From Patescibacteria group bacterium (lineage in GTDB: Bacteria; Patescibacteriota; Patescibacteriia; Magasanikbacterales; GWA2-37-8): DNA of 64,000 bases. The notes under the pieces are model-generated. The model was not told where the DNA came from. It was given only the letters and a program-made list of their open reading frames with translations, and searched no databases. How positions within the stretch are numbered: position 1 is the first letter of the stretch; each line of letters opens with the position of its first letter. Of this stretch, positions 292-60,764 are shown piece by piece. A program made the translations under genes and the position numbers. Where the stretch lies: positions 205,158 to 269,157 of the forward strand of contig JBAZKA010000001.1 of the NCBI GenBank assembly GCA_041651015.1. The letters run 5' to 3'.

Positions 292-1650
292 ATGAAAAAT
301 AAATTTAAAGAATTTTATCGATATAAGGATAACGAAATAGAAAAAATCTGGAAGGAGTGTATTTTTGTTTTTGATACAAATATTCTTTTAGATCTTTATA
401 GATATAGCAAATCAACCTCAGATAAATTTATCAAAATACTGAAAAAAATAACCCAAGAAGAAAGATTGTGGTTGCCTCACCAAGTAGGTTTAGAATTTAA
501 CAAAAAGAGAATAATTTTGATATCTGACCTGAAGAAATCATATTCTGACATAAAAGAAACTATTGAAAATTCGTTTAATGATGCTCAAAAGAAAATTGAC
601 GATAAATATCACAAAGAACATCCTTTTATAAATTTAAAAGAAATTGAATCAGAAATTGAAAAATGCAAAAAGATCATTTCAAAAACCATAGAAACGAATG
701 AAAAAAGTCATCCCGATTGGTTCAATAAGGATGAAATTTTTGAAGCGATAACAGAAATATTTGAAAATAAAGTTGGAGATGAATATAAAAAAGAAGAACT
801 TTCAAAAATATTTGAAGAAGGAAAGGAAAGATACGCAAACAAGATACCTCCTGGTTATGAAGATTTAAAAAATAAGGAAGATGGTAGAGAATACGGCGAT
901 CTGATTTTATGGTTTCAGATAATTGATATGGCGAAATCATCTAAGAAATCGATTGTTTTTATAACCCGAGATAATAAATCAGATTGGTGGTGGAAACAAT
1001 CAGGAGATACTATCGGTCCTCGACACGAATTAAAATATGAGATAAATAAAAAGGCAGGTGTTGATTTCCATATGTACAGTTCCGAAAAATTTTTAGAGTA
1101 TGCATCAGATTATTACAAAGAAACAGTTGACCAAAAATCAATCAAAGAGGTCAAGAGAATGAGCCGTCTTTTAGAAGAAAAAAATTATATAATGCATAAA
1201 ATGATGAATTTAAAATGGTTTAAGACCCCTTTTGTTCACGAATTTATTATGCAACAGGAAATGCTTAATAAAGAGCTGGCTAATCTTGTTAGAGAGACGC
1301 ACATAGATGAAGAGATTTTATTTGAATTTAGTAGAAATCAAGAAAGAGTTATGCATTTTATAGAACATATTTCAAATGAGGAAAGACCGCACCCTATGAT
1401 GTTTGAGGAGTTGTCTATGCTCAAAGAAAAAATGCAAATAGGATTGTTAGACTTTATGAAATCAAGAGAGATGGATGAGCGTCAAAAAGAATACCTAATG
1501 AGATTTCTTGAAAGAATGAATGAATCCTATATGATGTTAATAAGGTGTGCAGATAAGGAAGGTGTTTTTGAAAAATATTATCATAGAAATAAAATAAATA
1601 ATCATCGGTTGCAAAGATATTTAAGAGATGATGTAGAGTTAGAAAGTTAA
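292..1650 (+). CDS. PIN-like domain protein (predicted nuclease) with ~200-aa Met-rich helical C-terminal domain
   Basis: 452-aa ORF starting 3 nt after the MTase stop. It has PIN-type acidic motifs (FVFDTNILLDL, HQVGLEF, YGDLILWFQ, FITRDNKSDWW). The C-terminal half is predicted helical, with no fold I recognise. Confidence 0.5.
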   Translation: MKNKFKEFYRYKDNEIEKIWKECIFVFDTNILLDLYRYSKSTSDKFIKILKKITQEERLWLPHQVGLEFNKKRIILISDLKKSYSDIKETIENSFNDAQKKIDDKYHKEHPFINLKEIESEIEKCKKIISKTIETNEKSHPDWFNKDEIFEAITEIFENKVGDEYKKEELSKIFEEGKERYANKIPPGYEDLKNKEDGREYGDLILWFQIIDMAKSSKKSIVFITRDNKSDWWWKQSGDTIGPRHELKYEINKKAGVDFHMYSSEKFLEYASDYYKETVDQKSIKEVKRMSRLLEEKNYIMHKMMNLKWFKTPFVHEFIMQQEMLNKELANLVRETHIDEEILFEFSRNQERVMHFIEHISNEERPHPMMFEELSMLKEKMQIGLLDFMKSREMDERQKEYLMRFLERMNESYMMLIRCADKEGVFEKYYHRNKINNHRLQRYLRDDVELES

Positions 1651-1665
1651 ATTATAAACAATAAT

Positions 1666-2835
1666 ATGAAAACCACACTAAAAACCAATATCACGGTCAA
1701 GGATATTTGCGACGGGTTTGTCTATAATGAATTGGAAGGTAAGGGCTTATTTGGTTTGTCCGGCAAGCTCACAATCCAGCCGGAGTATCAGCGTAATTAT
1801 ATTTATGCCTCGGACGGCGGAAAAAGAGAAATGGCCGTTATTGAATCAATCCTCAAAGGTTACCCAATCGGCTTGATATATTTTAATAAAGTTTCTGAAA
1901 ACAATTTGGAAGTTTTGGACGGACAACAACGCATCACCAGCGTCGGGCGTTTCGTCACCGATAAATTTGCCATCAAAGATGAAAATGGCATGGAACAATA
2001 TTTTGGCGGTATGGCCAAAGACAAGAAAGCCAAGATAATGGAAACAAAATTACTTATTTATGAATGTGAAGGAACGGAAAGTCAAATAAAAGAATGGTTT
2101 AAAACGATTAATATCGCCGGTGTTCCGCTCAATAATCAGGAGTTGCTTAATGCTGTGTATTCCGGGCCGTTTGTGACACTTGGCAAGGAGGAATTTAGTA
2201 ATAGCCAAAATGCCAACATACAAAAATGGAGCGCGTATGTATCGGGTAGCGCGAACCGGCAAGATTTTTTGGAATGCGCGCTGGACTGGGTGAGCAAAGG
2301 CAATATCGGAGACTATATGAGCAGTCATCGATTTGATAAAAATATTACCGAGCTGAAAAAATATTTTAACAGCGTAGTTGACTGGGCATCAAGCGTGTTT
2401 ACTGATGTGGAAAGTGAAATGCGCGTATTGGAGTGGGGGAGATTGTACGAAGAGTACCACAAAAAAGCGTATAATTCTGCGAAAGTTTCTGCCGACGTAC
2501 AAAAGCTCTATGCAGATCCGTATATCAAAAATCGTAAAGGCATTTTTGAATATATCTTGGGCGGTTCTATAGACACAAAATTGCTTGAGGTTAGATTTTT
2601 TGATGACGCAACCAAAAAATTGGTATACAAAGAACAAACGACTAAAGCGGAAAAGAAAAGAGAATCTAACTGTCCGGATTGTGCTCTTGGGCATGAGGCA
2701 AATAAAGATAAAATTTGGAAACCAGACGAAATGGACGCCGACCATGTAACTGCGTGGAGCAAGGGAGGAAAAACAGCATCAAAAAATTGCCAGATGTTGT
2801 GTAAGACGCATAATCGAGCAAAGGGGAATCGATAA
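1666..2835 (+). CDS. DUF262 (ParB/GmrSD N-terminal-like) + HNH endonuclease protein
   Basis: Carries the DUF262 motifs IQPEYQRNY and LDGQQRITS. The C-terminus has an HNH motif (CPDCALGHE...[12 protein letters not shown]...[15 protein letters not shown]). 389 aa. Confidence 0.65.
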
Positions 2836-2885
2836 TAAAAAAATTATCAAAGTAAAATTACTAAATTTTTAGGAGGATAAAAAAT

Positions 2886-4298
2886 ATGACAAAAGAAGAA
2901 GTATTAAAAAAAATTAAATATGGTTTAGAAATATCAAGCGAACTTCCTGATCTTGAATTTAAGACTGCGGCGAGCAGCATTCCAAACGATATTTGGAGAA
3001 CTATCTCCGCTTTTGCGAATCGAAGAGGTGGGGGACTTGTTGTGTTCGGAGTTAACCAACAGGAAAACAAGATAACCGGTTGTTTTAATTTAGACCAGAT
3101 GCAAACTAAACTTACGGAATATTTTAATGATAAGATGAGTTTTGTTTTGCGACCGGAATATCACGTGATTGAAGACGGAGGGAAAAATATTTTAGCCGTT
3201 GTTATTCCGGAATGCCCAAAGGATTATATGCCCTGCTATTTTAAACCGATCGGACTTCCAAACGGCGCATATATTCGTGAGGCAAATACCAGTAGGATGA
3301 TTACCGATAATGAATTCAGAACATATGTCGCGACTTCAAAAGAATTTCAATTTGATTTGTCGGAAGCGGTGAATACCGATAAAGACGAAATTTCTACATC
3401 CAAAGTGACAAATCTGCTTGAACAAAGCGAATCTCAGGTGAAAAGAGGAGCGACACATATTATTGATGACACAGTACTTGAAAATTTAGGGATTATTTCC
3501 TCGTTTGATGGTGGGTATAAACCCACTATTGGAGGATATTTAATATTTGCTAAAATAATACCGCAAAACAAAAACCCCTACAATCGGTATACCGTTCGAT
3601 GTATTCGTTATGCTGGAAGCGATCCGTCATCTAAAATTATTGATGCTGTGGACATAACGGGAACGCTTGATTCTCAAATTGATGATGCTTACAAATTTGT
3701 TTTAAAAAATATCGCTAAAGATGCTGTAATTATTGGTACTAAGCGCGTTGAACGCTATGAATATCCTGAAGAAGGCGTTCGAGAATTAATAGCAAACGCC
3801 ATTATTCATCGCGACTATAAAATCATTGAAACATATACCCAAATACGAGTATTTAAAGATAGGATTGAAATAATTAATCCCGGATCTCTTCCACCCGGTG
3901 TTACAGTAGACAATATTAAAGAAGCGCAGTTCAGTCGCAATTCTATGATTGCCGCGAGACTTAAGGATATGCGCTATTTGGAAGAATATGGGCGCGGCAT
4001 TGATATTGTTATAAAGAAAATGTCTGATTGGAATTTACCCGATCCGTTATTTAGAAATTCTGTGAATAGTTTTGAAGCAATTCTTTTGGGCAATACATAC
4101 CGCGAGATTAATGATCGTCAAGCAAAAGTCATCGATGTTTTACTTATAAAAGGACGGCTTACTGTTCACGACTGCCAAAAAATATTAAAAGGAACGCCGA
4201 GGGCAACCATTAACAGCGATCTAAAAAAGTTAAGAGACCTTGGAATTTTGGTGCCAAATGGTGCCTCTGTCAATACATATTATACACTCTCTTTTTAG
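2886..4298 (+). CDS. AlbA_2 (Schlafen-like divergent AAA) / HATPase_c_4 / C-terminal wHTH putative regulator
   Basis: AGGAGG RBS 7 nt upstream. The N-terminus has the AlbA_2 signature (LEFKTAASSIPNDIWRTISAFANRRGGGLVVFGV). The central GRGIDIV motif is typical of the 'RecG C-terminal-like' HATPase domain. 470 aa. Confidence 0.6.
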   Translation: MTKEEVLKKIKYGLEISSELPDLEFKTAASSIPNDIWRTISAFANRRGGGLVVFGVNQQENKITGCFNLDQMQTKLTEYFNDKMSFVLRPEYHVIEDGGKNILAVVIPECPKDYMPCYFKPIGLPNGAYIREANTSRMITDNEFRTYVATSKEFQFDLSEAVNTDKDEISTSKVTNLLEQSESQVKRGATHIIDDTVLENLGIISSFDGGYKPTIGGYLIFAKIIPQNKNPYNRYTVRCIRYAGSDPSSKIIDAVDITGTLDSQIDDAYKFVLKNIAKDAVIIGTKRVERYEYPEEGVRELIANAIIHRDYKIIETYTQIRVFKDRIEIINPGSLPPGVTVDNIKEAQFSRNSMIAARLKDMRYLEEYGRGIDIVIKKMSDWNLPDPLFRNSVNSFEAILLGNTYREINDRQAKVIDVLLIKGRLTVHDCQKILKGTPRATINSDLKKLRDLGILVPNGASVNTYYTLSF

Positions 4299-35631: not shown

Positions 35632-38562
35632 TTATGCGCGATGGTCGCAAATATCCCGGTATTCGCAAAAATCACAAGTGTGCTTTTCGGGCGCGGCCGT
35701 AAAATCTCGGGCATTAATTCGTTCAAATATTTCCGTAAGTTTGGTCTCCAACTTGATAATGTCCTTTTCAGCGCCTATAAATGATTGCCGGCTTTGGTCG
35801 GTTAGATATATATAAGTCAATTTCTCCGGCTTGCCATACTGATTGTACTCAGGCAGTTCAGACACCGCCATTTGATAAACCAGGAGCTGTTCTTTATCCT
35901 CGGTATCCAATTTTTCCTTTGGCTTACCGGTTTTGTAATCAAATATTTCCAACATTCCCCCGGCGCTTACGTCCACCCGATCAATTTTTCCGGAAATTAA
36001 ATGCCCGCCGATTTTTATTTTAAATCCTTTTTCCAAGGCCACCGGCATTGTCCACAGGCCTTCGTTTGATTTATAAAAATTTTTTAGGATTTCAATTCCT
36101 TTATCATAATACTCCTCTCGTTGTTTGGCGCTTTTATACCAATCCGGTATCCAATAATCTTTGTAAATTTGCAATAGCTCATCCAAGGCAGGTGCCTTGA
36201 CACCGCCCGCGTTTTTTGTCGCAGTGGTCAAACCAAATAGCGAGGTTTGTTCGGCTGAATTTAATTCATGAACTCGTGAATAAAATTTATGTAAGACATT
36301 GTGCATCACTGACCCGAAAGTCAAACTGGGGCTGCCTTCCGATGGAATTTGCAGAATTGTTTTAAGTTTATATTTATATGGACACGCTTCGTATGTTTGG
36401 ACTTGAGAAAAAGAAAATACCTCGGGGATTTGGTAAACAAGTTCGCCTTTGGTTGGGGCTTCATTTAACGAAATAATTTTTGACAGCTTTTCATTATTTG
36501 CATCTGCCATGACATTAAATCCAAGTTCACTCAAGAAACGCGATATTTTTTTGTCGCGGGCCCCGCCGTAATTGTCAGCGCTGGTCAAGTACAAAAGTTC
36601 CTTAGCGCGAGTCATGGCCACATACATCAATCGGCGTTCTTCTTGGTAGTGAACATCGCCCTCAGGCAAATGCTCTTTGATTAATTCCAATGGAATTTGA
36701 ATCGCGTCGTCGCCGCGACGGCGGAGAGGGAATCTCTCCTCCACTAAATTTACGACAAAGACATACTTATACTCCAAACCCTTGGACATGTGCACAGTCA
36801 TAATATTCACCGAATCAGGCGTGTCTTCGGGTTGTTTAATAATTCCCGTGTCCCCTGATTCCAAAACATCATTAAAGTGTGCCAAAAAATCTTTGACATT
36901 TGCGTCCGCGGTCATGGATTCGTAATTTTTTACGTATTCAAAAAATTGGTTAAGATGGTGGATGTCGCGAATAATATTACGGTCGCCTTTGTCCTCTCCT
37001 TGCGTCAGATATTTCAAATATTTTGATTCATCCAAAAACTTGTACAGTGTTTGCGTTGGTTTTTCATTGCGGGCGATTTTTATGCCATTGTGAATAATTG
37101 AAAGAAGTTGTTGCGCGCTTGCTTCGCCGGATTGAGAGATATCAATTTCAGCCGAACGCTTGAGCGCTTCATAGTAGGATATTGTTTTTTTCTTCGCGAA
37201 TAGAGTAATCTTTTGCAAATCGTTTTCGCTCATTGTCAACATTGGCATTTTTAGCAAACGATAGATTGACGCCGATTCATGGTAATTATCAATGACTTTG
37301 AAAAAGTTTAACGCGTCCAAAACAATTCGTTCGCGATAAAGACCGGCCGCGGCCAAAAATTCATAGGGAATACCTTGGCGTTGAAACTCATTTACAAACG
37401 GTTCAACGTGGCTGTTGGCCCGGACGAGAATCGCAAAATCATCCCAAGACGCAGATTTGTCGTGTTTTTTAATTTTGAGTATTTCTTCGGCCACAAATTT
37501 TGTCTCTTCGTCAATTGTGCGCGAGTGAGAATGAATAACGCGCTCAGCCTTGCCGACAAAATCTATTTTGGATAAAAGTTTTTTATCAATTTTAAGTTTG
37601 GCTTCCAAACGGTCGGGATTATTATTTTGGATTAACTCATATGATTTTTCCAAAATTTCCTGAGCTGAACGATAATTTTCATTTAAAATAATTTCTGAAG
37701 CATCGGCAAAATCCTCTTTAAACCGTAAAATGTTTGCCACAGACGCCCCGCGAAAAGCATAAATACTTTGGTCATCATCCCCCACTACCGTGAGTTGAGA
37801 TTGAGCGGCAATTTTTTTCACCAGAGTGTATTGGGCAAAATTTACGTCCTGAAATTCATCCACCAAAACAAATTTGAATTGATTTTGAATTTTTTTGAGA
37901 ATGGACGGGCGTGTGTCCAAAAGTTTGTTGACCCAATAAATCAAGTCGGCAAAATCCAAATAATTATTTTCCAAAAGCAGTTGATTATAAACATGAAAGG
38001 CATTGGCCACTTCGGATAATCGTCCACGCTCTTCATCGCCGGAAATATCCTTGTCCAAGATTGCGTTTTGCGCGTGCGCCAGATACTCATCCGGAGTAAT
38101 CATTTCATCTTTGCATTTATGAAAATGTTTGATTAGTTCGTGAATGTGCCTGGTCGGATTACCCAGCGGCCTATAATAATTCAAATTATATTTATCCAAA
38201 TTCTTGCGAATCAATAGCCACGCATCCGTATCAGTCAGAATATTAAATTTGTTCGGCAAACCAATGTCCAATCCGTATTGTTGCAATAATTTTTCACAAA
38301 AAGCGTGAAATGTGGCGATGTACATTTCCAGATATCCGGTTTCCATCATCTCATCAACCCGGGATTGCATTTCGGCCGCGGCTTTTTCATTGAAGGTTAA
38401 AGCCAAAATTTGTTCGGGTTTGGCGAGTTTGTTATCCAAAAGATATTTAATCTTTTGTGTGACAGCTGTGGTTTTGCCTGTGCCAGCGCCGGCCACTATG
38501 ATTAGCGGGCCTGAGACATGTTCAATCGCCTTTTTTTGGGCTGAGTTTAGCTTTTTATCCAT
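35632..38562 (-). CDS. UvrD/PcrA-family helicase fused to C-terminal Cas4/AddB-like PD-(D/E)XK nuclease with Fe-S cysteines
   Basis: Walker A (AGAGTGKT) and the UvrD motifs. The C-terminus has ACPYKYK...DYKTGKP...CDFCEYRDIC (Cys1 + CxxCx5C). Confidence 0.75.
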   Translation of the reverse strand: MDKKLNSAQKKAIEHVSGPLIIVAGAGTGKTTAVTQKIKYLLDNKLAKPEQILALTFNEKAAAEMQSRVDEMMETGYLEMYIATFHAFCEKLLQQYGLDIGLPNKFNILTDTDAWLLIRKNLDKYNLNYYRPLGNPTRHIHELIKHFHKCKDEMITPDEYLAHAQNAILDKDISGDEERGRLSEVANAFHVYNQLLLENNYLDFADLIYWVNKLLDTRPSILKKIQNQFKFVLVDEFQDVNFAQYTLVKKIAAQSQLTVVGDDDQSIYAFRGASVANILRFKEDFADASEIILNENYRSAQEILEKSYELIQNNNPDRLEAKLKIDKKLLSKIDFVGKAERVIHSHSRTIDEETKFVAEEILKIKKHDKSASWDDFAILVRANSHVEPFVNEFQRQGIPYEFLAAAGLYRERIVLDALNFFKVIDNYHESASIYRLLKMPMLTMSENDLQKITLFAKKKTISYYEALKRSAEIDISQSGEASAQQLLSIIHNGIKIARNEKPTQTLYKFLDESKYLKYLTQGEDKGDRNIIRDIHHLNQFFEYVKNYESMTADANVKDFLAHFNDVLESGDTGIIKQPEDTPDSVNIMTVHMSKGLEYKYVFVVNLVEERFPLRRRGDDAIQIPLELIKEHLPEGDVHYQEERRLMYVAMTRAKELLYLTSADNYGGARDKKISRFLSELGFNVMADANNEKLSKIISLNEAPTKGELVYQIPEVFSFSQVQTYEACPYKYKLKTILQIPSEGSPSLTFGSVMHNVLHKFYSRVHELNSAEQTSLFGLTTATKNAGGVKAPALDELLQIYKDYWIPDWYKSAKQREEYYDKGIEILKNFYKSNEGLWTMPVALEKGFKIKIGGHLISGKIDRVDVSAGGMLEIFDYKTGKPKEKLDTEDKEQLLVYQMAVSELPEYNQYGKPEKLTYIYLTDQSRQSFIGAEKDIIKLETKLTEIFERINARDFTAAPEKHTCDFCEYRDICDHRA

Positions 38563-55197: not shown

Positions 55198-55224
55198 TTA
55201 AAAAACCGAGCTCACTGGCTCGGT
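55198..55224 (-). terminator. intrinsic terminator (ACCGAGC-CAGTGA-GCTCGGT + T6, read on minus strand)
   Basis: On the minus strand the hairpin is followed by TTTTTTAATTT. It ends the small-ORF pair downstream of the DUF2779 gene. Confidence 0.6.
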
Positions 55225-55248
55225 CGCCGATGCGAACCGCCGAGGTTT

Positions 55249-55410
55249 CTACCGCGCGTTGACGAATTTTTCGACATCACCATCAAGCACGCGATGAAAA
55301 TCCGCCACCGATTCAGGAGAAAGATCAGCGTCGTCGTCTATATGCATGAGGGGCATCCTTTGTAGTAGTTTCTCCAGCGGAGTCGGGTCATTTGTTTCTT
55401 TCGTCGTCAT
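55249..55410 (-). CDS. unlisted 53-aa acidic hypothetical protein (MTTKETNDPTPLEKLLQRMPLMHIDDDADLSPESVADFHRVLDGDVEKFVNAR)
   Basis: Hand-translated. Its ATG overlaps the TGA of the preceding ORF (ATGA coupling). TAG stop at 55249-55251, just before the terminator. Confidence 0.35.
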   Translation of the reverse strand: MTTKETNDPTPLEKLLQRMPLMHIDDDADLSPESVADFHRVLDGDVEKFVNAR

Positions 55411-55592
55411 TGTATTTTCCCTTCGGACATCCTTACTGCTGGACCCGCAGCACAGACCGCGTCAAATCTATTCAGCAACTCGACCAATTCTTCAAAGGTC
55501 AACATCCCCTCATCACGACCCATCCATGTGGTCACCGAGCCGACACGTTGTCTAAATTCCGATTCCGCTGCCGACGTACCCTCTTTATCCAT
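55407..55592 (-). CDS. 61-aa acidic hypothetical protein
   Basis: AGGAGG RBS 5 nt upstream of the ATG. A TTGCAC-N17-TAAATT promoter candidate lies upstream. GC-rich relative to the flanks. Confidence 0.4.
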   Translation of the reverse strand: MDKEGTSAAESEFRQRVGSVTTWMGRDEGMLTFEELVELLNRFDAVCAAGPAVRMSEGKIQ

Positions 55593-55648: not shown

Positions 55649-57112
55649 TTAGTGCAAATGTTGTAAAAAATTTAATATTTCCACCATGGCCATTGTATCC
55701 AAACCGCAATAATCAGTCATGTCTTTGTAAAGTTTATCCTTGTCTTTTTTACTGATACCTGGATCAATCAATGTCTTCCAACTGTCAGAAGCTGTCCCAC
55801 CTTCCTGAATATTTAAATCCTTATAGGATAATTTTGGGACCAATACCGGTAAAACCTTTTTAATTGAAGCGCTCCCGTGAAAATTTTTGTGGACATAATA
55901 GCCTTTACGGAAAATCAACATCAAATCATACATGGAATCGTTGACTGATTTTAGGAAACTAACATATTTTGAAGAACGCTTGGCCATTTCACTATTACAG
56001 CCTTTTTCAAATATTGCATTCCATGTTATCACTGTTCCTTTACACGTTATAAACGACTTAAGACTTTTGAGCAGGTCTTCCGTCGGATCCTTGAAGTCTT
56101 TGGCCAGAAATTCATAATGTTTCAGCTTGCCGCACGGCTTTTCCTGAACGTGCAGGGAAAACTGAAAGACAATGCGTTGGTAAGGTTTGTAGCCGTCAAA
56201 AAGAGGGATAGCGGGGCTGAATGTCTCGTAATCAAGAAAATAGAGCGGGTATTTGAGATTGTTTAGGTCTTCTTTGATTTTATCAGATTCAATATGGACT
56301 TTATTATGTTTAACCACATGACGATGCATCAAGGCTCGGTCTCTGTTTAAAAAATCCTCAGGTATATCTTTTATTTCCAGAATATCTTGATCCAAAAGCT
56401 CATTCAGCTTTTTCTCGCTTAAACCGCAAGCAATGTCATAGATGGAATCAACGGGTATTTTTTTCCAACAGTAATCAATAAATGGACATTCATAGGGGCT
56501 ATTGCATTGCTTTAAGATTCTTATTTGCGGTTCTTTGGGAGACTTGGTAAGTTTCAAAGCTGATACAATATTCAATTTGGTTTCGCTGATTATATTTCTG
56601 ACATCCGAAGTTATATCCTCAATTTTGAATAATTTTTTGGGGTCAACCTGACCCATTCTGACATAGTCTGTATTTATAACAACTAAATATGTTTTACCAA
56701 TCTGATAACCCGCAGATTCAAAGCAAATTTTTTGAAAAGATAAATCAACAATATGAATATCTTTAACTTGGGTTGAACTTTTTACTTCGTAAATATCCCA
56801 CTTATCACCGTTCTTAACAAAAATATCAGCCATGGCATAAAGGCTTTTGGCCATGGCGGTAGCTTGAAAAATAACCTCGTTGCCGTCTTTGATCAGCTTG
56901 TCAGTATTATTTTTAGCAGTTTCATAAAGTCCCTCGGCTTTAACGCCTTTGGGAAATAATTTTCGGGCATAATCCTCAACTTCATAGCCCTCGTCAAAAA
57001 TCCCTTGCAACGATTCGCCGGTTTCTTCAGGCAACAAATCACGGCGGAATTTATACAGCCAGAGGTATTTGCAACATTGAATATATTTTAGGAATTGAGA
57101 CTTGGATAACAT
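55649..57112 (-). CDS. DUF2779-family protein (N-terminal PD-(D/E)XK/Cas4-like nuclease + C-terminal DEDD/RNase H-like domain)
   Basis: MLSKSQFLKYIQCCKYLWL start; IYEVKSS...; Cys cluster CNSPYECPFIDYCW; second domain YFLDYETFSPAIP...QRIVFQFSLH. Confidence 0.6.
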   Translation of the reverse strand: MLSKSQFLKYIQCCKYLWLYKFRRDLLPEETGESLQGIFDEGYEVEDYARKLFPKGVKAEGLYETAKNNTDKLIKDGNEVIFQATAMAKSLYAMADIFVKNGDKWDIYEVKSSTQVKDIHIVDLSFQKICFESAGYQIGKTYLVVINTDYVRMGQVDPKKLFKIEDITSDVRNIISETKLNIVSALKLTKSPKEPQIRILKQCNSPYECPFIDYCWKKIPVDSIYDIACGLSEKKLNELLDQDILEIKDIPEDFLNRDRALMHRHVVKHNKVHIESDKIKEDLNNLKYPLYFLDYETFSPAIPLFDGYKPYQRIVFQFSLHVQEKPCGKLKHYEFLAKDFKDPTEDLLKSLKSFITCKGTVITWNAIFEKGCNSEMAKRSSKYVSFLKSVNDSMYDLMLIFRKGYYVHKNFHGSASIKKVLPVLVPKLSYKDLNIQEGGTASDSWKTLIDPGISKKDKDKLYKDMTDYCGLDTMAMVEILNFLQHLH

Positions 57113-57123
57113 GAAATTATGAT

Positions 57124-59877
57124 CTAATTATGCCGATCAAGAACCTCCTTAACAATTTCTCGGTATTTATCAACGATACAATAATCATCCTTCAATTCGC
57201 CGATTCCTCCGTCAGTTTTGAAACTAACAATCTGTCTTAAATGGTCGCTATCTCTTTTGGTTATGAATTGGGATATATTGCTTAAATATCTGCCAGCTTG
57301 GCCATCATCATCTCCAACACCTTTTTGAAATAATTTTCCCTTAATTTCTTCGCGAGAAAAAGTCCTTGATTCTGAAAGCAATATTTCTAAAAATTTAATT
57401 AATCGCGGGGTTAGAGTAGTATCTCGAGATAATGTTTCTTGAAGTAAGCCTTCTAACTCTTTATCAGAATAGTTGCCCCTATCTAAAGAAAAAGTATTTC
57501 TTTCATTTTCAAATTCATCCGATGAATGATCGTCTTTTATTTCCAATAGCATTATATATGCCTTCGCCAGATCATCCTCAATAGACTTTGTGTTATTGAA
57601 GTCGACCTTCTTGAAAAGGAGAGAATATCTATCATTATATGTCCAATCTGAAAATTCCCGTTTATCTCTTATAAAATTTATCACTGATGCATACCGATTA
57701 TCCATGACCTGAATATGCAAAATAATAGCTAACTCTTTTAAAAAATATGTTGATTTACTGAAATAAATACAAGGCACATAAGTCTTTTCGGCATATTTAT
57801 CGTCGCCGTATAATTCTTTGCTGCCATAAAAATTATAATAATCTTCTTTGCAGCGACCCCAAGCAGTAGTTTTCTCTTCTACATCTACATCATCAGCGCG
57901 GTCAAGAAATTTAGTTTTCATTTTTTCTTCTAAATTTAGCTTATATTGGTCGATAAGCGTCAATTCTTCTTCAGTAAACTCATTTTCATTATTATCGCTT
58001 TCTTCCGCGATAGAGATAACTTCCTCATTTTTAATATCACCATCCGTAATTTGCCAAACTTCTTTCAATTTATCAATAATTGATTTCTGCCTTTCTTTAA
58101 TTGCAAGCGGCGTCCATTCTTTATATTTGCTTAATTCTTGGGTCATATTAAAGGCAGACTGTCTGTCTTTGAGTGTTTCGCCCGAATAGATTTTGAGTTT
58201 TTCGTCATAAGGTTTATTTGAGGCAGTTTGATTCTTTGATTTATTCTTTTCTTTTACCCCGCCAATGAGGAGAGTAAGGTTGCCTATGGTATTCACCAGC
58301 TTTAACTGTTCACCTACAGTAAATCTGTCCGTCCAATATTTAGCAGTCATTGTCTGTGGTAAAATATGCTCAATTTGAGTACAATTAAAATCAATGCTTT
58401 TCTCCACTGAATCATCCGTTAATAAATACTCGTATTTTGACAAGGCGTATCTGCACCATGATTGGCCATAACAATCTCCTTGTATTGAGTCCATGAAACG
58501 CATCAGAACCCCACTCCTGCGAATAGTATCATCTATATATTCTTTAATTTCAGCGATTGATTTGTTTTTATTTACATAGTCTCTAATTAGAGCCAGTGTC
58601 GGGTTTTTTATCTTAGCAACATTATAGCCGGCGATCCAAAATAAAGCATACATTTTTTCTAATGCAAATATCAATTCCTCAAAATCAGACTTGGAATAAT
58701 TATTTCTGCGGGCTGATATTAACACAGGCAACCATTCCCAATGGTTAATATACCAAAGAAGTTTAAGATTGTTTTTTGCCTCATTTGATAATTCGTCAAA
58801 CTTTTTCCCTTTTATTAAAGAAGCATAACAATCAGCTGAGGATTTCCATTCTCTAATAAAATCCTCGGAAAGCAAATTTTTACTTTTGATATAGTTGATA
58901 ATTTCTTTATATAGATTTTTTTTGGGCTTAACCCCAATCATCGCCGTCCAGTGGTGTCGCAGTAGCTCCTGCATTTCGATGTCCTCACCGGCGATACCTT
59001 TTATGTACTTGTAGCCTTCAAGAAGCACCTGCTTTTCTATCTCAAAATCCTTTTCCGATTTTGGATTTAGGCGATTATGTTTTTTAATTTCCTCCTGCAA
59101 TCTTTTAAGTAAAAAATTCTTCAGCAATTCGTCGGTTTCCAACCCTTCACCACGCTGGTTAATTGTTTCAAAAATTGTATAAGCGGACGATAAATCCTCT
59201 GCTATTATATTAACAACCAAAGTTTTATCCATGAAATAATTGTACAGACTCTCCAAATAATGTATTGCGTCCTTTTCATTGTTTACAAGTTCACTTTCCT
59301 TATTATTAATATTTTCCTGCAAGTATTGGATGGCATTAATATAATGAAGAGCCAACGAAGTATTTTTTATATCGCGCAAAGCACCAATTTTCTTTAATAC
59401 GTAATTTTCAAAATCTGATCTATCCTCTGGGCGTATCTGAAGACGAAATTTACCGTCCTTACAGATAAACTCATCGTGAATTTTTTCAGATAGACCGGCT
59501 CTTCCGTGCTCGGCAAAATAATCTCTTAACACTGCTAAAAAAATAGTGATTGTTGTTAATCTTTGCTGGCCGTCGACTAGCTCAAAATCATTATTGTCTT
59601 GTTTTTTTATAAGGATCATCGACCCAAGAAAATAATTTTCCTCATTATTATCATAGGCCGTTGTTATATCATTCCAAAAATCATCAATATTTTCTTTTCC
59701 CCACCTGTAAGGCCTTTGATAATCTGGAATGCTAAAATAGCTATCTTGGTCACCGATTAAACTTTTGATATTCTTTTCTAAGGGTTGAATCTTCATACGA
59801 AATTCCAGATAATTTATAAGTATCAAACCTTGTCCTTCCCTGTCTTGTGCATTTTCAATTCCTTTACAGAAAGCCAA
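57124..59877 (-). CDS. GmrSD-like type IV restriction enzyme homologue (DUF262 + DUF1524) with ~320-aa uncharacterised C-terminal extension
   Basis: IPDYQRPYRW and VDGQQRLTT (DUF262); CTQIEHILPQT (DUF1524 His-Me finger). The likely start is MKIQPLEK at 59796. 890-917 aa. Confidence 0.65.
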   Translation of the reverse strand: MAFCKGIENAQDREGQGLILINYLEFRMKIQPLEKNIKSLIGDQDSYFSIPDYQRPYRWGKENIDDFWNDITTAYDNNEENYFLGSMILIKKQDNNDFELVDGQQRLTTITIFLAVLRDYFAEHGRAGLSEKIHDEFICKDGKFRLQIRPEDRSDFENYVLKKIGALRDIKNTSLALHYINAIQYLQENINNKESELVNNEKDAIHYLESLYNYFMDKTLVVNIIAEDLSSAYTIFETINQRGEGLETDELLKNFLLKRLQEEIKKHNRLNPKSEKDFEIEKQVLLEGYKYIKGIAGEDIEMQELLRHHWTAMIGVKPKKNLYKEIINYIKSKNLLSEDFIREWKSSADCYASLIKGKKFDELSNEAKNNLKLLWYINHWEWLPVLISARRNNYSKSDFEELIFALEKMYALFWIAGYNVAKIKNPTLALIRDYVNKNKSIAEIKEYIDDTIRRSGVLMRFMDSIQGDCYGQSWCRYALSKYEYLLTDDSVEKSIDFNCTQIEHILPQTMTAKYWTDRFTVGEQLKLVNTIGNLTLLIGGVKEKNKSKNQTASNKPYDEKLKIYSGETLKDRQSAFNMTQELSKYKEWTPLAIKERQKSIIDKLKEVWQITDGDIKNEEVISIAEESDNNENEFTEEELTLIDQYKLNLEEKMKTKFLDRADDVDVEEKTTAWGRCKEDYYNFYGSKELYGDDKYAEKTYVPCIYFSKSTYFLKELAIILHIQVMDNRYASVINFIRDKREFSDWTYNDRYSLLFKKVDFNNTKSIEDDLAKAYIMLLEIKDDHSSDEFENERNTFSLDRGNYSDKELEGLLQETLSRDTTLTPRLIKFLEILLSESRTFSREEIKGKLFQKGVGDDDGQAGRYLSNISQFITKRDSDHLRQIVSFKTDGGIGELKDDYCIVDKYREIVKEVLDRHN

Positions 59878-60764
59878 AAAAACAACCCAACTACGATAAA
59901 AGTAATCAACGGCGGGACAAATGATTGCACGTGCACGCTCAAACTCTCGGCCATCATAATCGCGCCAAGCGAGGCAATGGAATACATGGCGCCGTTTTTA
60001 AGATAACGGTATTTTTTGATTGTGTTTATACCCTTAACTGTCACATACCGCACCACAAACGCGCCAATACCATTACCAATGATAATAAGCGGAACCGACA
60101 GAGTAAACGCGAACGCACCAAGCACACCATCAATAGAAAAAGTGGTGTCAATCAATTCCAGGTAAAGAATTTTGGCAATATCAGACATTCGTCCGCCACC
60201 GGTCAATTCTTTTTCTTTTTCTTCGGCATTATTTTTAAATCCCGAAGTTATAAAAAAAGCGGATGAGCCAATCACCGCGCCAAGTGCAATCATAGGGTTA
60301 ATTTTAATCGTCGCCCAGACAAAAGCCAATAAAATTATTGAGGCGGCGGCATAAAACCAAAAATATAATTTTTGATGGACATGTCGTTCAATGAAAAAAG
60401 CGTAATCCTTTTTTTCGGTAAACAACCAATGCAAAAATAAAAACACCAGATACAAACCACCGCCGCCAAGAAGTATGGGTTTGCTTGCCTCAATTGCGTC
60501 TTTTATCATCGGGTCTGAGCTAAATGTGGCGGTTAGCGCGCCCCAAAGACCAAGATTCGTATTGGTGAAGTAGACGATCAAAAGCGGTAAAAGTCCGCGG
60601 ACTACAAATACGGCGATAATAATACCGTAAAACAAAAACCAACGCCGGGCCTTGGCCGACATAGTGGACAAAACATCCGCGTTTACGACGGCATTGTCTA
60701 TACTTGATATTACCTCAAACAAGGTCAAGCCTAGAACGATAACGATTATTTCATTGATACCCAT
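59823..60764 (-). CDS. TerC/DUF475-like integral membrane protein
   Basis: Polytopic protein with two internal repeats, each carrying a SIDNA/SIDGV-type motif. Confidence 0.4.
   Translation of the reverse strand: MGINEIIVIVLGLTLFEVISSIDNAVVNADVLSTMSAKARRWFLFYGIIIAVFVVRGLLPLLIVYFTNTNLGLWGALTATFSSDPMIKDAIEASKPILLGGGGLYLVFLFLHWLFTEKKDYAFFIERHVHQKLYFWFYAAASIILLAFVWATIKINPMIALGAVIGSSAFFITSGFKNNAEEKEKELTGGGRMSDIAKILYLELIDTTFSIDGVLGAFAFTLSVPLIIIGNGIGAFVVRYVTVKGINTIKKYRYLKNGAMYSIASLGAIMMAESLSVHVQSFVPPLITFIVVGLFFWLSVKELKMHKTGKDKV

What the first reader, a model, noticed from the sequence alone, without database searches (positions are those of the whole stretch)
55649..59877. GmrSD-like type IV nuclease with 320-aa novel C-terminal extension operonic with a DUF2779 two-nuclease protein
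A DUF262/DUF1524 protein (modification-dependent restriction family) carries a long acidic/Lys-rich C-terminal region, about residues 600-917, with no recognisable motif. It is followed 12 nt later on the same strand by a full-length DUF2779 protein (Cas4-like PD-(D/E)XK + DEDD-like exonuclease). GmrSD enzymes are normally self-contained. A dedicated second nuclease plus the small ORF pair suggests a composite defence module. The island is wedged between rsmI and a TerC-like/ferredoxin/Isc cluster, i.e. within core genes.
Basis: partly seen in the sequence, partly recalled or inferred. Interest (0 to 1): 0.65.

Follow-up and report, generated by a model that had tools for sequence, protein, structure and literature searches.

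The report
GmrSD restriction enzyme with partner exonuclease
A Patescibacteria genome carries a phage-restriction enzyme of the GmrSD family with two extra C-terminal domains, and beside it sits a little-studied double exonuclease (DUF2779) that accompanies this kind of enzyme in many related genomes, so the two probably work as one anti-phage cassette nobody has described.

Summary
On the minus strand lie a GmrSD-family gene (57124-59796; 890 aa from the ATG, as NCBI annotates it, not 917) and, 11 nt later, a 487-aa DUF2779 gene (55649-57112).

The core (aa 1-582) is a full GmrSD/HEC-06-type enzyme with intact DGQQR and EH...N...N motifs. Its closest solved folds are DndI and SspE.

The "novel 320-aa extension" has three parts:
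- an acidic disordered linker;
- an alpha/beta insert of about 105 aa, seen in only six proteins;
- a 130-aa terminal domain with no Pfam model. Weak fold hits point to a winged helix. It recurs in 174 protein clusters, fused to NucS-like nucleases, TIR, KAP NTPases and AAA ATPases.

The DUF2779 pairing is real. It is adjacent on the same strand in 10 of 14 informative members of this GmrSD clade and in 10 of 80 DUF2779 loci from different genomes. All ten are among the 30 closest relatives. Both gene orders occur, and the GmrSD partners fall into at least four clades only about 20% identical.

The small ORF pair is not conserved elsewhere. The locus is a low-GC insert between rsmI and TerC.

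Most likely this is a two-gene restriction cassette: GmrSD cuts and DUF2779 chews the ends. The mechanism is inferred, not shown. It is a new variant of a known kind.

The parts
57124..59796 (-). GmrSD-family (HEC-06-like) gene, 890 aa from the ATG. The mechanical ORF extends to a TTG at 59877, which overlaps the TerC gene.
   Evidence: The 890-aa product is identical to NCBI/JGI protein P0022. The full-length AF2 model has mean pLDDT 90.3. Best Foldseek PDB matches are DndI 9jfl (1.5e-15) and SspE (2.8e-13).
59107..59769 (-). DUF262 / GmrSD_N domain (aa 10-230). The DGQQR motif is aa 75-79 (59560-59574).
   Evidence: Pfam 4.9e-39. D75, G76, Q77, Q78 and R79 are at least 90% conserved in a 76-sequence family alignment. 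Mutating this motif abolishes HEC-06 defence (bioRxiv 10.1101/2024.01.29.577857).
58075..58455 (-). DUF1524 / GmrSD_C His-Me (HNH-type) nuclease domain (aa 448-574). E476-H477 lie at 58366-58371; N506 and N522 follow.
   Evidence: Pfam 1.6e-19. H477, N506 and N522 are invariant and E476 nearly invariant.
57847..58050 (-). Acidic, largely disordered linker containing one long helix (aa ~583-650).
   Evidence: pLDDT is below 50 at aa 595-601 and 639-649; a helix spans 609-626. The composition can be read directly from the sequence.
57526..57846 (-). Insert alpha/beta domain (aa ~651-757), restricted to six known proteins.
   Evidence: AF2 predicts strands at 653-655, 676-682, 690-696, 719-721 and 726-731 and helices at 704-710 and 736-756, with pLDDT about 80-95. 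It is present only in P0022, P0023, P0024, P0026, P0028 and P0029, and is very divergent in P0024 and P0026. No Pfam, PDB-sequence or Foldseek match. hhalign finds no relation to the NucS-like domain.
57127..57516 (-). Terminal conserved domain (aa ~761-890): helical with a beta-hairpin, winged-helix-like, with the signature GQAGRYLSNISQFITK..HLRQ.
   Evidence: It is 45-59% identical to the C-termini of ~350-aa NucS-like proteins; hhalign probability is 100%. A profile search finds 174 clusters at E<=1e-3. It is fused to TIR, KAP NTPase, AAA and HARE-HTH proteins. pLDDT exceeds 90. Foldseek gives only weak hits, mostly winged-helix proteins. No Pfam or PDB sequence hit.
55649..57112 (-). DUF2779 gene, 487 aa. 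N-terminal Cas4/RecB-like PD-(D/E)XK domain (about aa 1-220; 56453-57112). C-terminal DEDDy-type exonuclease, covered by the PF11074 domain (aa ~291-487; 55652-56242).
   Evidence: Invariant in 44 homologues: D96, E109, K111 and Q127 in the N-terminal domain; D294, E296, E369, D396, Y468 and D472 in the C-terminal domain. C203 and C209 are at least 90% conserved. The architecture is described in PMC3985635 and PMC13621843.
55407..55592 (-). 61-aa ORF with a GGAGG ribosome-binding site. Not conserved; membership of the module is doubtful.
55249..55410 (-). 53-aa ORF, translationally coupled to the 61-aa ORF (ATGA overlap). Not conserved; membership of the module is doubtful.
55204..55225 (-). 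Terminator-like hairpin plus T-run. It closes the TerC-GmrSD-DUF2779-small-ORF run of same-strand genes.
   Evidence: No terminator-like site lies between the TerC stop (59823) and the GmrSD ATG (59796).

Best explanation
This is a horizontally acquired two-gene restriction cassette.

Gene 1 is a GmrSD-family, HEC-06-like enzyme. A DUF262 NTPase domain (DGQQR) drives or licenses a DUF1524 His-Me finger nuclease that cuts invading DNA. By family precedent the target is probably modified DNA. Two extra modules are appended. One is a small alpha/beta insert. The other is a terminal winged-helix-like domain that also occurs on NucS-like nucleases, TIR, KAP-NTPase and AAA effectors. That domain most likely acts as a nucleic-acid or ligand-sensing or targeting module.

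Gene 2 (DUF2779) combines a Cas4/RecB-type PD-(D/E)XK nuclease with a DEDDy 3'-5' exonuclease. It most likely attacks the ends or nicks made by gene 1 and degrades both strands, which would make restriction irreversible.

Shown here: domain content, intact catalytic residues, fold of the core, recurrence of the pairing, mobility of the locus.
Inferred: substrate specificity, order of action, any physical interaction between the two proteins, and the role of the terminal domain.
For: Core identity:
- Pfam GmrSD_N and GmrSD_C; PADLOC HEC-06 at 1.3e-80 over aa 8-582.
- DGQQR and EH/N/N are conserved. These are the motifs whose mutation abolishes HEC-06 defence.
- The model (pLDDT 90.3) matches DndI and SspE.

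DUF2779:
- PD-(D/E)XK and DEDDy residues are invariant across 44 homologues.
- The literature reads both halves as active nucleases.

Linkage:
- DUF2779 is adjacent on the same strand for the window, P0023, P0028, P0029, P0030, P0031, P0034, P0038, L024 and L028. It is absent for P0024, P0025, P0027 and P0032. That is 10 of 14.
- In an independent sample of 80 DUF2779 loci from different genomes, 10 have a GmrSD-family neighbour. All ten are among the 30 loci at least 44% identical to the window protein (Fisher p = 1.8e-5).
- Most intergenic gaps are -1 to 63 nt, and both gene orders occur. In L012 and L015 a small ORF sits between the two genes, and the gap in L022 is 242 nt.
- The DUF2779 partners are 40-84% identical to one another, while their GmrSD partners fall into at least four clades about 20% identical. 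The association has therefore formed or been kept repeatedly (Mantel r = 0.49, p = 0.004).
- DUF2779 also pairs in apparent operons with another candidate defence nuclease, PDDEXK_4 (PADLOC PDC-S26).

Mobility:
- GC dips across the locus and the flanks are housekeeping genes.
- An 88-89% identical DUF2779 gene sits in two unrelated contexts in another MAG.
Against: - No functional data exist for any member of the pair.
- 70 of 80 DUF2779 loci lack GmrSD. Some sit beside housekeeping genes such as SAM synthetase (L037, L040).
- The family is quasi-essential in a minimal Mycoplasma. DUF2779 therefore clearly has roles outside this pairing.
- Four clade members do without DUF2779, and HEC-06 defends as a single gene.
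- The same window encodes a UvrD-helicase/PDDEXK_1 fusion protein. The host is therefore not obviously short of end-processing nucleases.
- Modification dependence is not established. The nearest solved folds, DndI and SspE, sense host phosphorothioation instead.
- The winged-helix assignment of the terminal domain rests on sub-significant Foldseek hits (best E = 0.078).
Confidence: 0.55

Rival explanations
1. The two genes are independent. DUF2779 is a stand-alone repair or defence nuclease that merely accumulates in the same defence islands as GmrSD genes, with no mechanistic coupling.
For: - DUF2779 neighbours are very diverse, with 77 singleton neighbour families. They include RNase_T/ExoX, RhuM/Fic, trypsin-like peptidase and SAM synthetase.
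- Most DUF2779 loci (70 of 80) lack GmrSD.
- GmrSD clade members P0024, P0025, P0027 and P0032 lack DUF2779.
- HEC-06 works as a single gene.
- DUF2779 is quasi-essential in JCVI-syn3.0, which has no such partner described.
Against: - Of 12 GmrSD-family hits in the 6-kb flanks of the 80 loci, 10 are the adjacent gene or separated by one small ORF, always on the same strand (p about 5e-4 under random placement).
- Most gaps are operon-like.
- Both gene orders and at least four divergent GmrSD clades are involved.
- 10 of 14 members of the window's own clade keep the partner.
Confidence: 0.25
2. DUF2779 is a protective or repair partner. It processes accidental self-DNA breaks or nicks made by the GmrSD enzyme (end resection for recombinational repair), limiting autoimmunity rather than destroying phage DNA.
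For: - The DEDD half's best match in the literature is MrfB, a repair exonuclease, and the family is quasi-essential in a minimal cell.
- Cas4/RecB-type nucleases resect ends in AddAB/RecBCD (established knowledge).
Against: - Nothing in the locus suggests regulation of toxicity.
- DUF2779 also pairs with other restriction-type nucleases (PDC-S26) and lies beside a type I HsdR gene (L020). This fits a shared downstream degradative role at least as well.
- The window already encodes a UvrD-helicase/PDDEXK_1 fusion protein.
Confidence: 0.12
3. The GmrSD-like enzyme is not a modification-dependent type IV enzyme. Like DndI and SspE, it is the effector of a host DNA-modification-sensing system encoded elsewhere in the genome.
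For: The closest solved structures are DndI (9jfl, E = 1.5e-15) and SspE. PADLOC SspE models hit the N-terminal ~100 aa.
Against: - The PADLOC SspE hits are weak and partial, whereas HEC-06 models match end to end.
- No dnd or ssp gene flanks the locus. The nearby cysteine desulfurase sits with NifU and ferredoxin, a normal Fe-S assembly set.
- None of the related loci examined shows dnd or ssp genes next to the pair.
Confidence: 0.08

Closest known systems
HEC-06 (PADLOC candidate; GmrSD-like single-gene phage defence, Payne et al., bioRxiv 10.1101/2024.01.29.577857)
   Same: The profile matches end to end over aa 8-582 (1.3e-80). It has the same DUF262 - helical linker - DUF1524 layout. DGQQR and EH motifs are present; both are required for HEC-06 defence.
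   Different: HEC-06 models are about 560 aa and describe a single gene. This protein carries 308 further residues (linker, insert domain, terminal domain). In most relatives it is paired with a DUF2779 nuclease.
GmrSD / BrxU type IV restriction enzymes (Eco94GmrSD, EcoCTGmrSD, BrxU)
   Same: Pfam GmrSD_N and GmrSD_C are both present. By family precedent the enzyme is NTP-dependent and modification-dependent.
   Different: Those enzymes are self-contained. BrxU was not among the significant fold matches. Substrate preference here is unknown.
DndI (PDB 9jfl) and SspE (6jiv, 7drs), phosphorothioate-sensing DUF262 effectors
   Same: They are the best structural matches to the predicted core (E = 1.5e-15 and 2.8e-13) and the only significant PDB sequence hit (9jfl, 4.6e-10).
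   Different: No dnd or ssp modification genes accompany this locus or its relatives. Identity to these structures is only 14-18%.
DUF2779 / UU173 family (PF11074; e.g. MMSYN1_0389 of JCVI-syn3.0)
   Same: It has the same Cas4-like plus DEDD(h/y) two-nuclease architecture with conserved catalytic residues (PMC13621843, PMC3985635).
   Different: The window protein is shorter (487 aa, against the 650-position NCBIfam UU173 model). Unlike MMSYN1_0389, four cysteines (C13, C203, C209, C215) are invariant in the window protein and its two closest paired homologues. It also belongs to a subclade linked to GmrSD genes. No function has been tested for any member.
PDC-S11 (PADLOC candidate; NucS-like nuclease)
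   Same: The commonest carriers of the window protein's terminal domain are ~350-aa proteins whose N-terminal 220-240 aa match PDC-S11 models (1e-71 to 6e-75).
   Different: The PDC-S11 models do not cover the terminal domain. The window protein itself has no NucS-like part (hhalign).

Membership tests
GmrSD family (DUF262-DUF1524 enzymes) | N-terminal DUF262 (ParB/Srx-like) domain with a DGQQR motif | tested here: met
   Pfam GmrSD_N 4.9e-39, aa 10-230. D75-G76-Q77-Q78-R79 are at least 90% conserved in the family alignment.
GmrSD family (DUF262-DUF1524 enzymes) | C-terminal DUF1524 His-Me/HNH nuclease with the (D/E)H...N...N motif | tested here: met
   Pfam GmrSD_C 1.6e-19, aa 448-574. E476/H477, N506 and N522 are invariant or nearly so.
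GmrSD family (DUF262-DUF1524 enzymes) | Overall fold like solved family members | tested here: met
   The AF2 model (pLDDT 90.3) matches DndI 9jfl (E = 1.5e-15, TM-target 0.55) and SspE (2.8e-13) by Foldseek. BrxU was not recovered.
GmrSD family (DUF262-DUF1524 enzymes) | NTP-stimulated cleavage of modified (hmC, glc-hmC, mC) DNA, which defines type IV status | not testable with these tools
   Needs enzyme assays or plaque assays.
HEC-06 (PADLOC) | Full-length match to the HEC-06 profile | tested here: met
   PDLC04157 1.3e-80, protein aa 8-582 against profile positions 12-556 of 558.
HEC-06 (PADLOC) | Single-gene system of about 560 aa with no further domains | tested here: not met
   There are 308 extra C-terminal residues, and DUF2779 is a conserved neighbour in 10 of 14 clade members.
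DUF2779 / UU173 family | PF11074 domain (DEDD-type RNase H-like exonuclease) with conserved acidic residues and Y/H-x3-D | tested here: met
   Pfam 3.1e-39. D294, E296, E369, D396, Y468 and D472 are invariant in 44 sequences.
DUF2779 / UU173 family | N-terminal Cas4/RecB-like PD-(D/E)XK domain (D...ExK, QxxxY region, Cys ligands) | tested here: met
   D96, E109, K111 and Q127 are invariant; C203 and C209 are at least 90% conserved. C13 and C215 are invariant in the three closest proteins. PADLOC Cas4 gives 4e-6. Pfam Cas_Cas4 scores only 18.9 bits, below its cut-off of 22.7.
DUF2779 / UU173 family | NCBIfam UU173_fam curated cut-off | tested here: not met
   51.9 bits against a cut-off of 225; only aa 153-486 match. 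The protein is a relative, not a member of that NCBIfam subfamily.
CRISPR-associated Cas4 | Located in a cas operon or next to a CRISPR array | tested here: not met
   No Rfam match of any kind in the 64-kb window. No cas gene appeared in the listed Pfam results for the locus or the rest of the window, though one search shows only the first 25 of 81 families.
Dnd/Ssp phosphorothioate-sensing effectors (DndI, SspE) | Encoded with dndBCDE or sspABCD modification genes | tested here: not met
   The window flanks are housekeeping genes. No related locus shows dnd or ssp neighbours. The rest of the genome could not be examined.
Winged helix-turn-helix (terminal domain) | Three-helix bundle plus beta-hairpin wing, with significant similarity to known wHTH folds | tested here: inconclusive

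The most novel reading that the evidence does not exclude
DUF2779 is the shared downstream 'executioner' exonuclease of an unrecognised class of two-gene restriction cassettes. A variable front-end nuclease (GmrSD of several clades, or PDDEXK_4/PDC-S26) makes the first cut, and a bidirectional Cas4+DEDD nuclease destroys the DNA.

Separately, the terminal domain of the window protein is a previously undescribed sensor module. It is exchanged among GmrSD, NucS-like, TIR, KAP-NTPase and AAA defence effectors.
Probability: 0.35. Interest if true: 0.7.

Novelty: new variant of a known kind. Interest (0 to 1): 0.55.

Why it matters
GmrSD-type enzymes are treated as self-contained single-gene defences. 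DUF2779 is a widespread family whose function has never been tested and which is quasi-essential in the minimal cell JCVI-syn3.0.

A conserved GmrSD-DUF2779 cassette gives DUF2779 its first testable biological context: degrading or processing DNA ends downstream of a restriction nuclease. It also suggests how small-genome Patescibacteria complete restriction.

The terminal domain has no Pfam model. It joins nucleases, TIR, KAP and AAA effectors, and it could be added to defence-system annotation profiles. It may help explain how such effectors find their targets.

Tried and rejected
- Insert domain as a decayed NucS-like nuclease. I asked whether the window protein is a fusion of a GmrSD with a NucS-like-plus-terminal-domain protein, since L006 has those two as neighbours. 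hhalign aligns only the terminal 140 aa (probability 100%) and gives 0.5% for anything else. Rejected.
- Terminal domain as the feature that recruits DUF2779. In the metagenome loci fetched with the domain profile, almost all carry a NucS-like-plus-terminal-domain gene and none of these has a DUF2779 neighbour. GmrSD partners lacking the domain still pair with DUF2779. Rejected.
- Small ORF pair as conserved module members. tblastn against all loci fetched by that point (L001-L089) finds nothing better than E = 1. Rejected.
- tRNA or ncRNA at the island border as an integration site. ARAGORN and Rfam find nothing in the window.
- The pair as phage-borne. A viral-contig scan with the DUF2779 alignment found no relative.
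- Homologues of the insert domain alone. The search returned none. It also missed the known homologues P0023-P0029, so this negative is weak.
- Pfam, NCBIfam and PDB-sequence searches of the extension and of the terminal-domain alignment gave only noise.
- The idea that DUF2779 replaces a missing RecBCD/AddAB was dropped. The window itself encodes a UvrD-helicase/PDDEXK_1 fusion protein.

Full report
**1. What is in the sequence**

All genes of the region lie on the minus strand.
- The long ORF 57124..59877 starts at a TTG that overlaps the upstream TerC/DUF475 gene (59823..60764).
- The in-frame ATG at 59796 gives 890 aa. This is identical to a protein annotated in a Patescibacteria-group MAG on a 286.5-kb contig (P0022). 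I use 890-aa numbering throughout.
- Its TAG stop (57124-57126) is followed after 11 nt by the ATG of a 487-aa ORF, 55649..57112.
- Two small ORFs follow. The 61-aa ORF (55407..55592) has a GGAGG ribosome-binding site. The 53-aa ORF (55249..55410) overlaps it by ATGA. A terminator-like hairpin lies at 55225-55204.
- No terminator-like site separates TerC from the long gene.
- The flanking genes are housekeeping. One side has an RsmI-type methylase, NUDIX, MetG and CvpA. The other has TerC/DUF475, ferredoxin, NifU and a class-V aminotransferase.
- GC is 0.32-0.39 over the two large genes and 0.41-0.46 outside.
- No tRNA or Rfam family lies in the window.

**2. The GmrSD-like protein**

Sequence and motifs:
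- Pfam finds GmrSD_N (aa 10-230, 4.9e-39) and GmrSD_C (aa 448-574, 1.6e-19).
- PADLOC HEC-06 profiles match end to end over aa 8-582 (1.3e-80). SspE profiles match only the first ~100 aa.
- In a 76-sequence family alignment, DGQQR (aa 75-79), E476-H477, N506 and N522 are invariant or nearly so.
- HEC-06 is an experimentally validated single-gene GmrSD-like defence. It loses activity when the DGQQR or EH residues are mutated (bioRxiv 10.1101/2024.01.29.577857).

Structure:
- A full-length AlphaFold2 model has mean pLDDT 90.3.
- Its only significant PDB matches are DndI (9jfl, E = 1.5e-15) and SspE (2.8e-13 to 2.9e-8). These are the phosphorothioate-sensing members of the family.
- The core is therefore a genuine, apparently active GmrSD-family enzyme of the HEC-06 type. 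Whether it depends on DNA modification cannot be told from sequence.

**3. The C-terminal extension is three things, not one**

- *Linker (aa ~583-650).* It is acidic and mostly disordered (pLDDT below 50 at 595-601 and 639-649) and contains one long helix.
- *Insert domain (aa ~651-757).* It is predicted as a compact alpha/beta domain with pLDDT about 80-95.
  - It occurs only in six proteins of 872-891 aa (P0022, P0023, P0024, P0026, P0028, P0029) and is strongly diverged in two of them.
  - It matches no Pfam model, PDB sequence or PDB fold.
  - It is not related to the NucS-like domain.
- *Terminal domain (aa ~761-890).* This is a well-conserved module.
  - It is 45-59% identical to the C-termini of ~350-aa proteins whose N-terminal halves are NucS-like PD-(D/E)XK nucleases (hhalign probability 100%). 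Those halves match the PADLOC candidate PDC-S11.
  - A profile of the domain, searched against 1.84 billion cluster representatives, finds 174 proteins at E<=1e-3.
  - These include the ~720-aa relatives of the window protein, in which the domain follows the GmrSD core directly (P0027, P0038, P0041, P0044).
  - They also include stand-alone ~120-160-aa proteins and fusions to TIR (P0151), KAP NTPases (P0152, P0191), AAA-type ATPases and HARE-HTH plus AAA (P0172).
  - The domain has no Pfam model and no PDB sequence relative.
  - It is predicted with pLDDT above 90 as helices followed by a beta-hairpin. The weak Foldseek hits are dominated by winged-helix proteins (ROQ, PadR, Fur, MarR), but none is significant (best E = 0.078).
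  - The invariant residues are polar and sit on two adjacent helices (G..LSN.SQ..T and LRQ). I infer that they form a conserved binding surface.
  - Attachment to many different effector types is the usual signature of a sensing or targeting module in conflict systems. That reading is an inference.

**4. The DUF2779 protein**

- Pfam DUF2779 covers aa 291-416 (3.1e-39). Cas4 matches are weak: Pfam 18.9 bits, below the cut-off, and PADLOC 4e-6.
- Across 44 homologues, the invariant residues are D96, E109, K111 and Q127 (PD-(D/E)XK / RecB-type) and D294, E296, E369, D396, Y468 and D472 (DEDDy-type). C203 and C209 are at least 90% conserved. C13 and C215 are invariant in the closest three.
- The literature describes the family the same way. 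It places PF11074 in the 3'-5' exonuclease clade of the RNase H-like superfamily, joined to a DUF83/Cas4-like domain (PMC3985635).
- A 2026 analysis of the quasi-essential MMSYN1_0389 of JCVI-syn3.0 reads it as a Cas4-like plus DEDDh fusion with both sites probably active (PMC13621843).
- No member has been characterised experimentally.

**5. Is the pairing real?**

Evidence from the GmrSD side, for relatives at least 38% identical to the window protein:
- A DUF2779 gene is adjacent on the same strand for the window, P0023 (L001/L002), P0029 (L003), P0028 (L005, partial ORF 56% identical), P0030 (L012), P0031 (L171), P0034 (L173), P0038 (L025), L024 and L028.
- It is absent for P0024, P0025, P0027 and P0032.
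- P0026 is at a contig end and is uninformative.
- That makes 10 of 14 informative cases.

Evidence from the DUF2779 side, using a scan of one genome per species:
- The scan returned 80 loci.
- Ten have a GmrSD-family gene adjacent or one small ORF away on the same strand: L012, L015, L017, L020, L021, L022, L024, L025, L028 and L050.
- All ten are among the 30 loci whose DUF2779 is at least 44% identical to the window's. None is among the 50 more distant loci (Fisher p = 1.8e-5).
- Only two further GmrSD-type hits lie elsewhere in the 6-kb flanks (L010, L048).
- Both gene orders occur. Most gaps are -1 to 63 nt. In L012 and L015 a small ORF sits between the two genes, and the gap in L022 is 242 nt.

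Evidence from partner divergence:
- The paired DUF2779 proteins are 40-84% identical to one another.
- Their GmrSD partners fall into at least four groups only about 20% identical, and only one group carries the terminal domain (Mantel r = 0.49, p = 0.004).
- The same DUF2779 lineage has therefore been combined with different GmrSD lineages. This is hard to explain by shared descent of one island alone.

Other neighbours of DUF2779:
- DUF2779 also forms apparent operons with PDDEXK_4 nucleases that match the PADLOC candidate PDC-S26 end to end (L026, L038, L054, L077).
- It also sits beside RNase_T/ExoX-like exonucleases (seven loci), next to a type I HsdR gene (L020), beside AAA_13 ATPases, and sometimes beside plainly housekeeping genes.
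- The closest DUF2779 relatives (88-89% identity, two copies in one Parcubacteria MAG) share no flanking gene with the window. They lie among ParB-methylase, HEPN, DUF262-only and SMC-like genes. The gene is therefore mobile.

**6. Mechanism**

The best-supported reading is a two-gene restriction cassette.
- The GmrSD-type enzyme recognises and cuts foreign DNA. It may be helped in targeting by its terminal winged-helix-like domain.
- DUF2779 has one 5'-3'-type (Cas4/RecB-like) nuclease and one 3'-5' (DEDDy) nuclease. It would degrade the resulting ends.

What is shown and what is inferred:
- Shown here: domain content, intact catalytic residues, fold of the core, and the statistical linkage.
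- Inferred: direction of information flow, any physical interaction, substrate specificity, and the roles of the insert and terminal domains.

Rival readings:
- Mere co-residence in defence islands.
- A self-repair role for DUF2779.
- A DndI/SspE-like dependence on a host modification system.

An initial idea was that DUF2779 makes up for a missing RecBCD/AddAB. The window itself encodes a UvrD-helicase/PDDEXK_1 fusion protein, which weakens that idea.

**7. Novelty**

- Every individual fold family here is known except the two appended domains.
- The GmrSD-DUF2779 cassette was not found described in the searchable literature. DUF2779 occurs in seven papers, none of which, by title or abstract, concerns GmrSD. 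A GmrSD+Cas4 search returned nothing relevant.
- PADLOC treats HEC-06 as a single gene and has no DUF2779 model.
- I rate this a new variant of a known kind, of moderate interest. It gives a testable role to a widespread uncharacterised nuclease family, and it defines a new accessory domain of defence effectors.

**8. Limits**

- There are no functional data.
- The adjacency census is a sample of 94 loci without phylogenetic correction.
- Many MAG contigs are short.
- PAE and coordinates of the models were not available.
- Only the PDB Foldseek library could be searched.

Noticed in passing
window 292-4295 (+): A second defence-like cluster: a PIN_8-domain protein (292-1647), a 389-aa DUF262 (GmrSD_N) + HNH protein (1666-2832), and a Schlafen AlbA_2 + HATPase_c_4 protein (2886-4295).
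   Followed up: no
window 35635-38562 (-): A 976-aa fusion of UvrD-type helicase and PDDEXK_1 nuclease, with a weak ADDB_N match, i.e. a helicase-nuclease. The host therefore has end-processing capacity apart from DUF2779.
   Followed up: partly
P0001-P0021; loci L091-L169: About 350-aa proteins combine a NucS-like nuclease (the N-terminal part of PADLOC PDC-S11) with the same terminal domain as the window protein. They are its commonest carriers and usually sit alone. In L006 one lies directly upstream of a 613-aa DUF262 protein.
   Followed up: partly
P0151, P0152, P0191, P0172, P0161 and others: The terminal domain is also fused to TIR, KAP NTPase, AAA-type ATPase and HARE-HTH proteins, and it occurs as stand-alone ~120-160-aa proteins. 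No Pfam model covers it.
   Followed up: partly
L026:4831-5991, L038:4829-5992, L054:4905-5990, L077:4905-5990: DUF2779 is preceded, with -8 to 9 nt between the genes, by PDDEXK_4 nucleases. The one tested against PADLOC (L026) matches the candidate PDC-S26 end to end (4.8e-109). This is a second recurrent nuclease partner of DUF2779.
   Followed up: partly
L065-L072 (upstream neighbours of DUF2779): In seven genomes (Bdellovibrionales and Moraniibacteriota MAGs), DUF2779 follows a ~245-290-aa RNase_T/ExoX-like exonuclease gene with a gap of -1 to 36 nt.
   Followed up: no
L010:4771-5985 and L011:4867-5985: One Parcubacteria MAG holds two DUF2779 copies (88-89% identical to the window's). Each is preceded, 18 nt upstream, by a related 370-400-aa protein with no Pfam or PADLOC match. 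Neighbours include ParB-N6/N4 methylase, HEPN, DUF262-only and SMC-like genes.
   Followed up: partly
L008:10175-11626 and L170:6169-7614: The ~720-aa GmrSD relatives that lack DUF2779 (P0025, P0027) are instead followed by a convergent ~480-aa gene (a Terminase_6C hit in L008) and by N6/N4 methylase genes (with a ParB_N domain in L170). L008 also has SMODS and S_4TM genes. These look like mobile or prophage-like elements.
   Followed up: no
window 55249-55592 (-): The two small coupled ORFs have clearly higher GC (about 0.44-0.46) than the two nuclease genes upstream. They have no homologue in any fetched locus or family library, and their origin and function are unexplained.
   Followed up: partly
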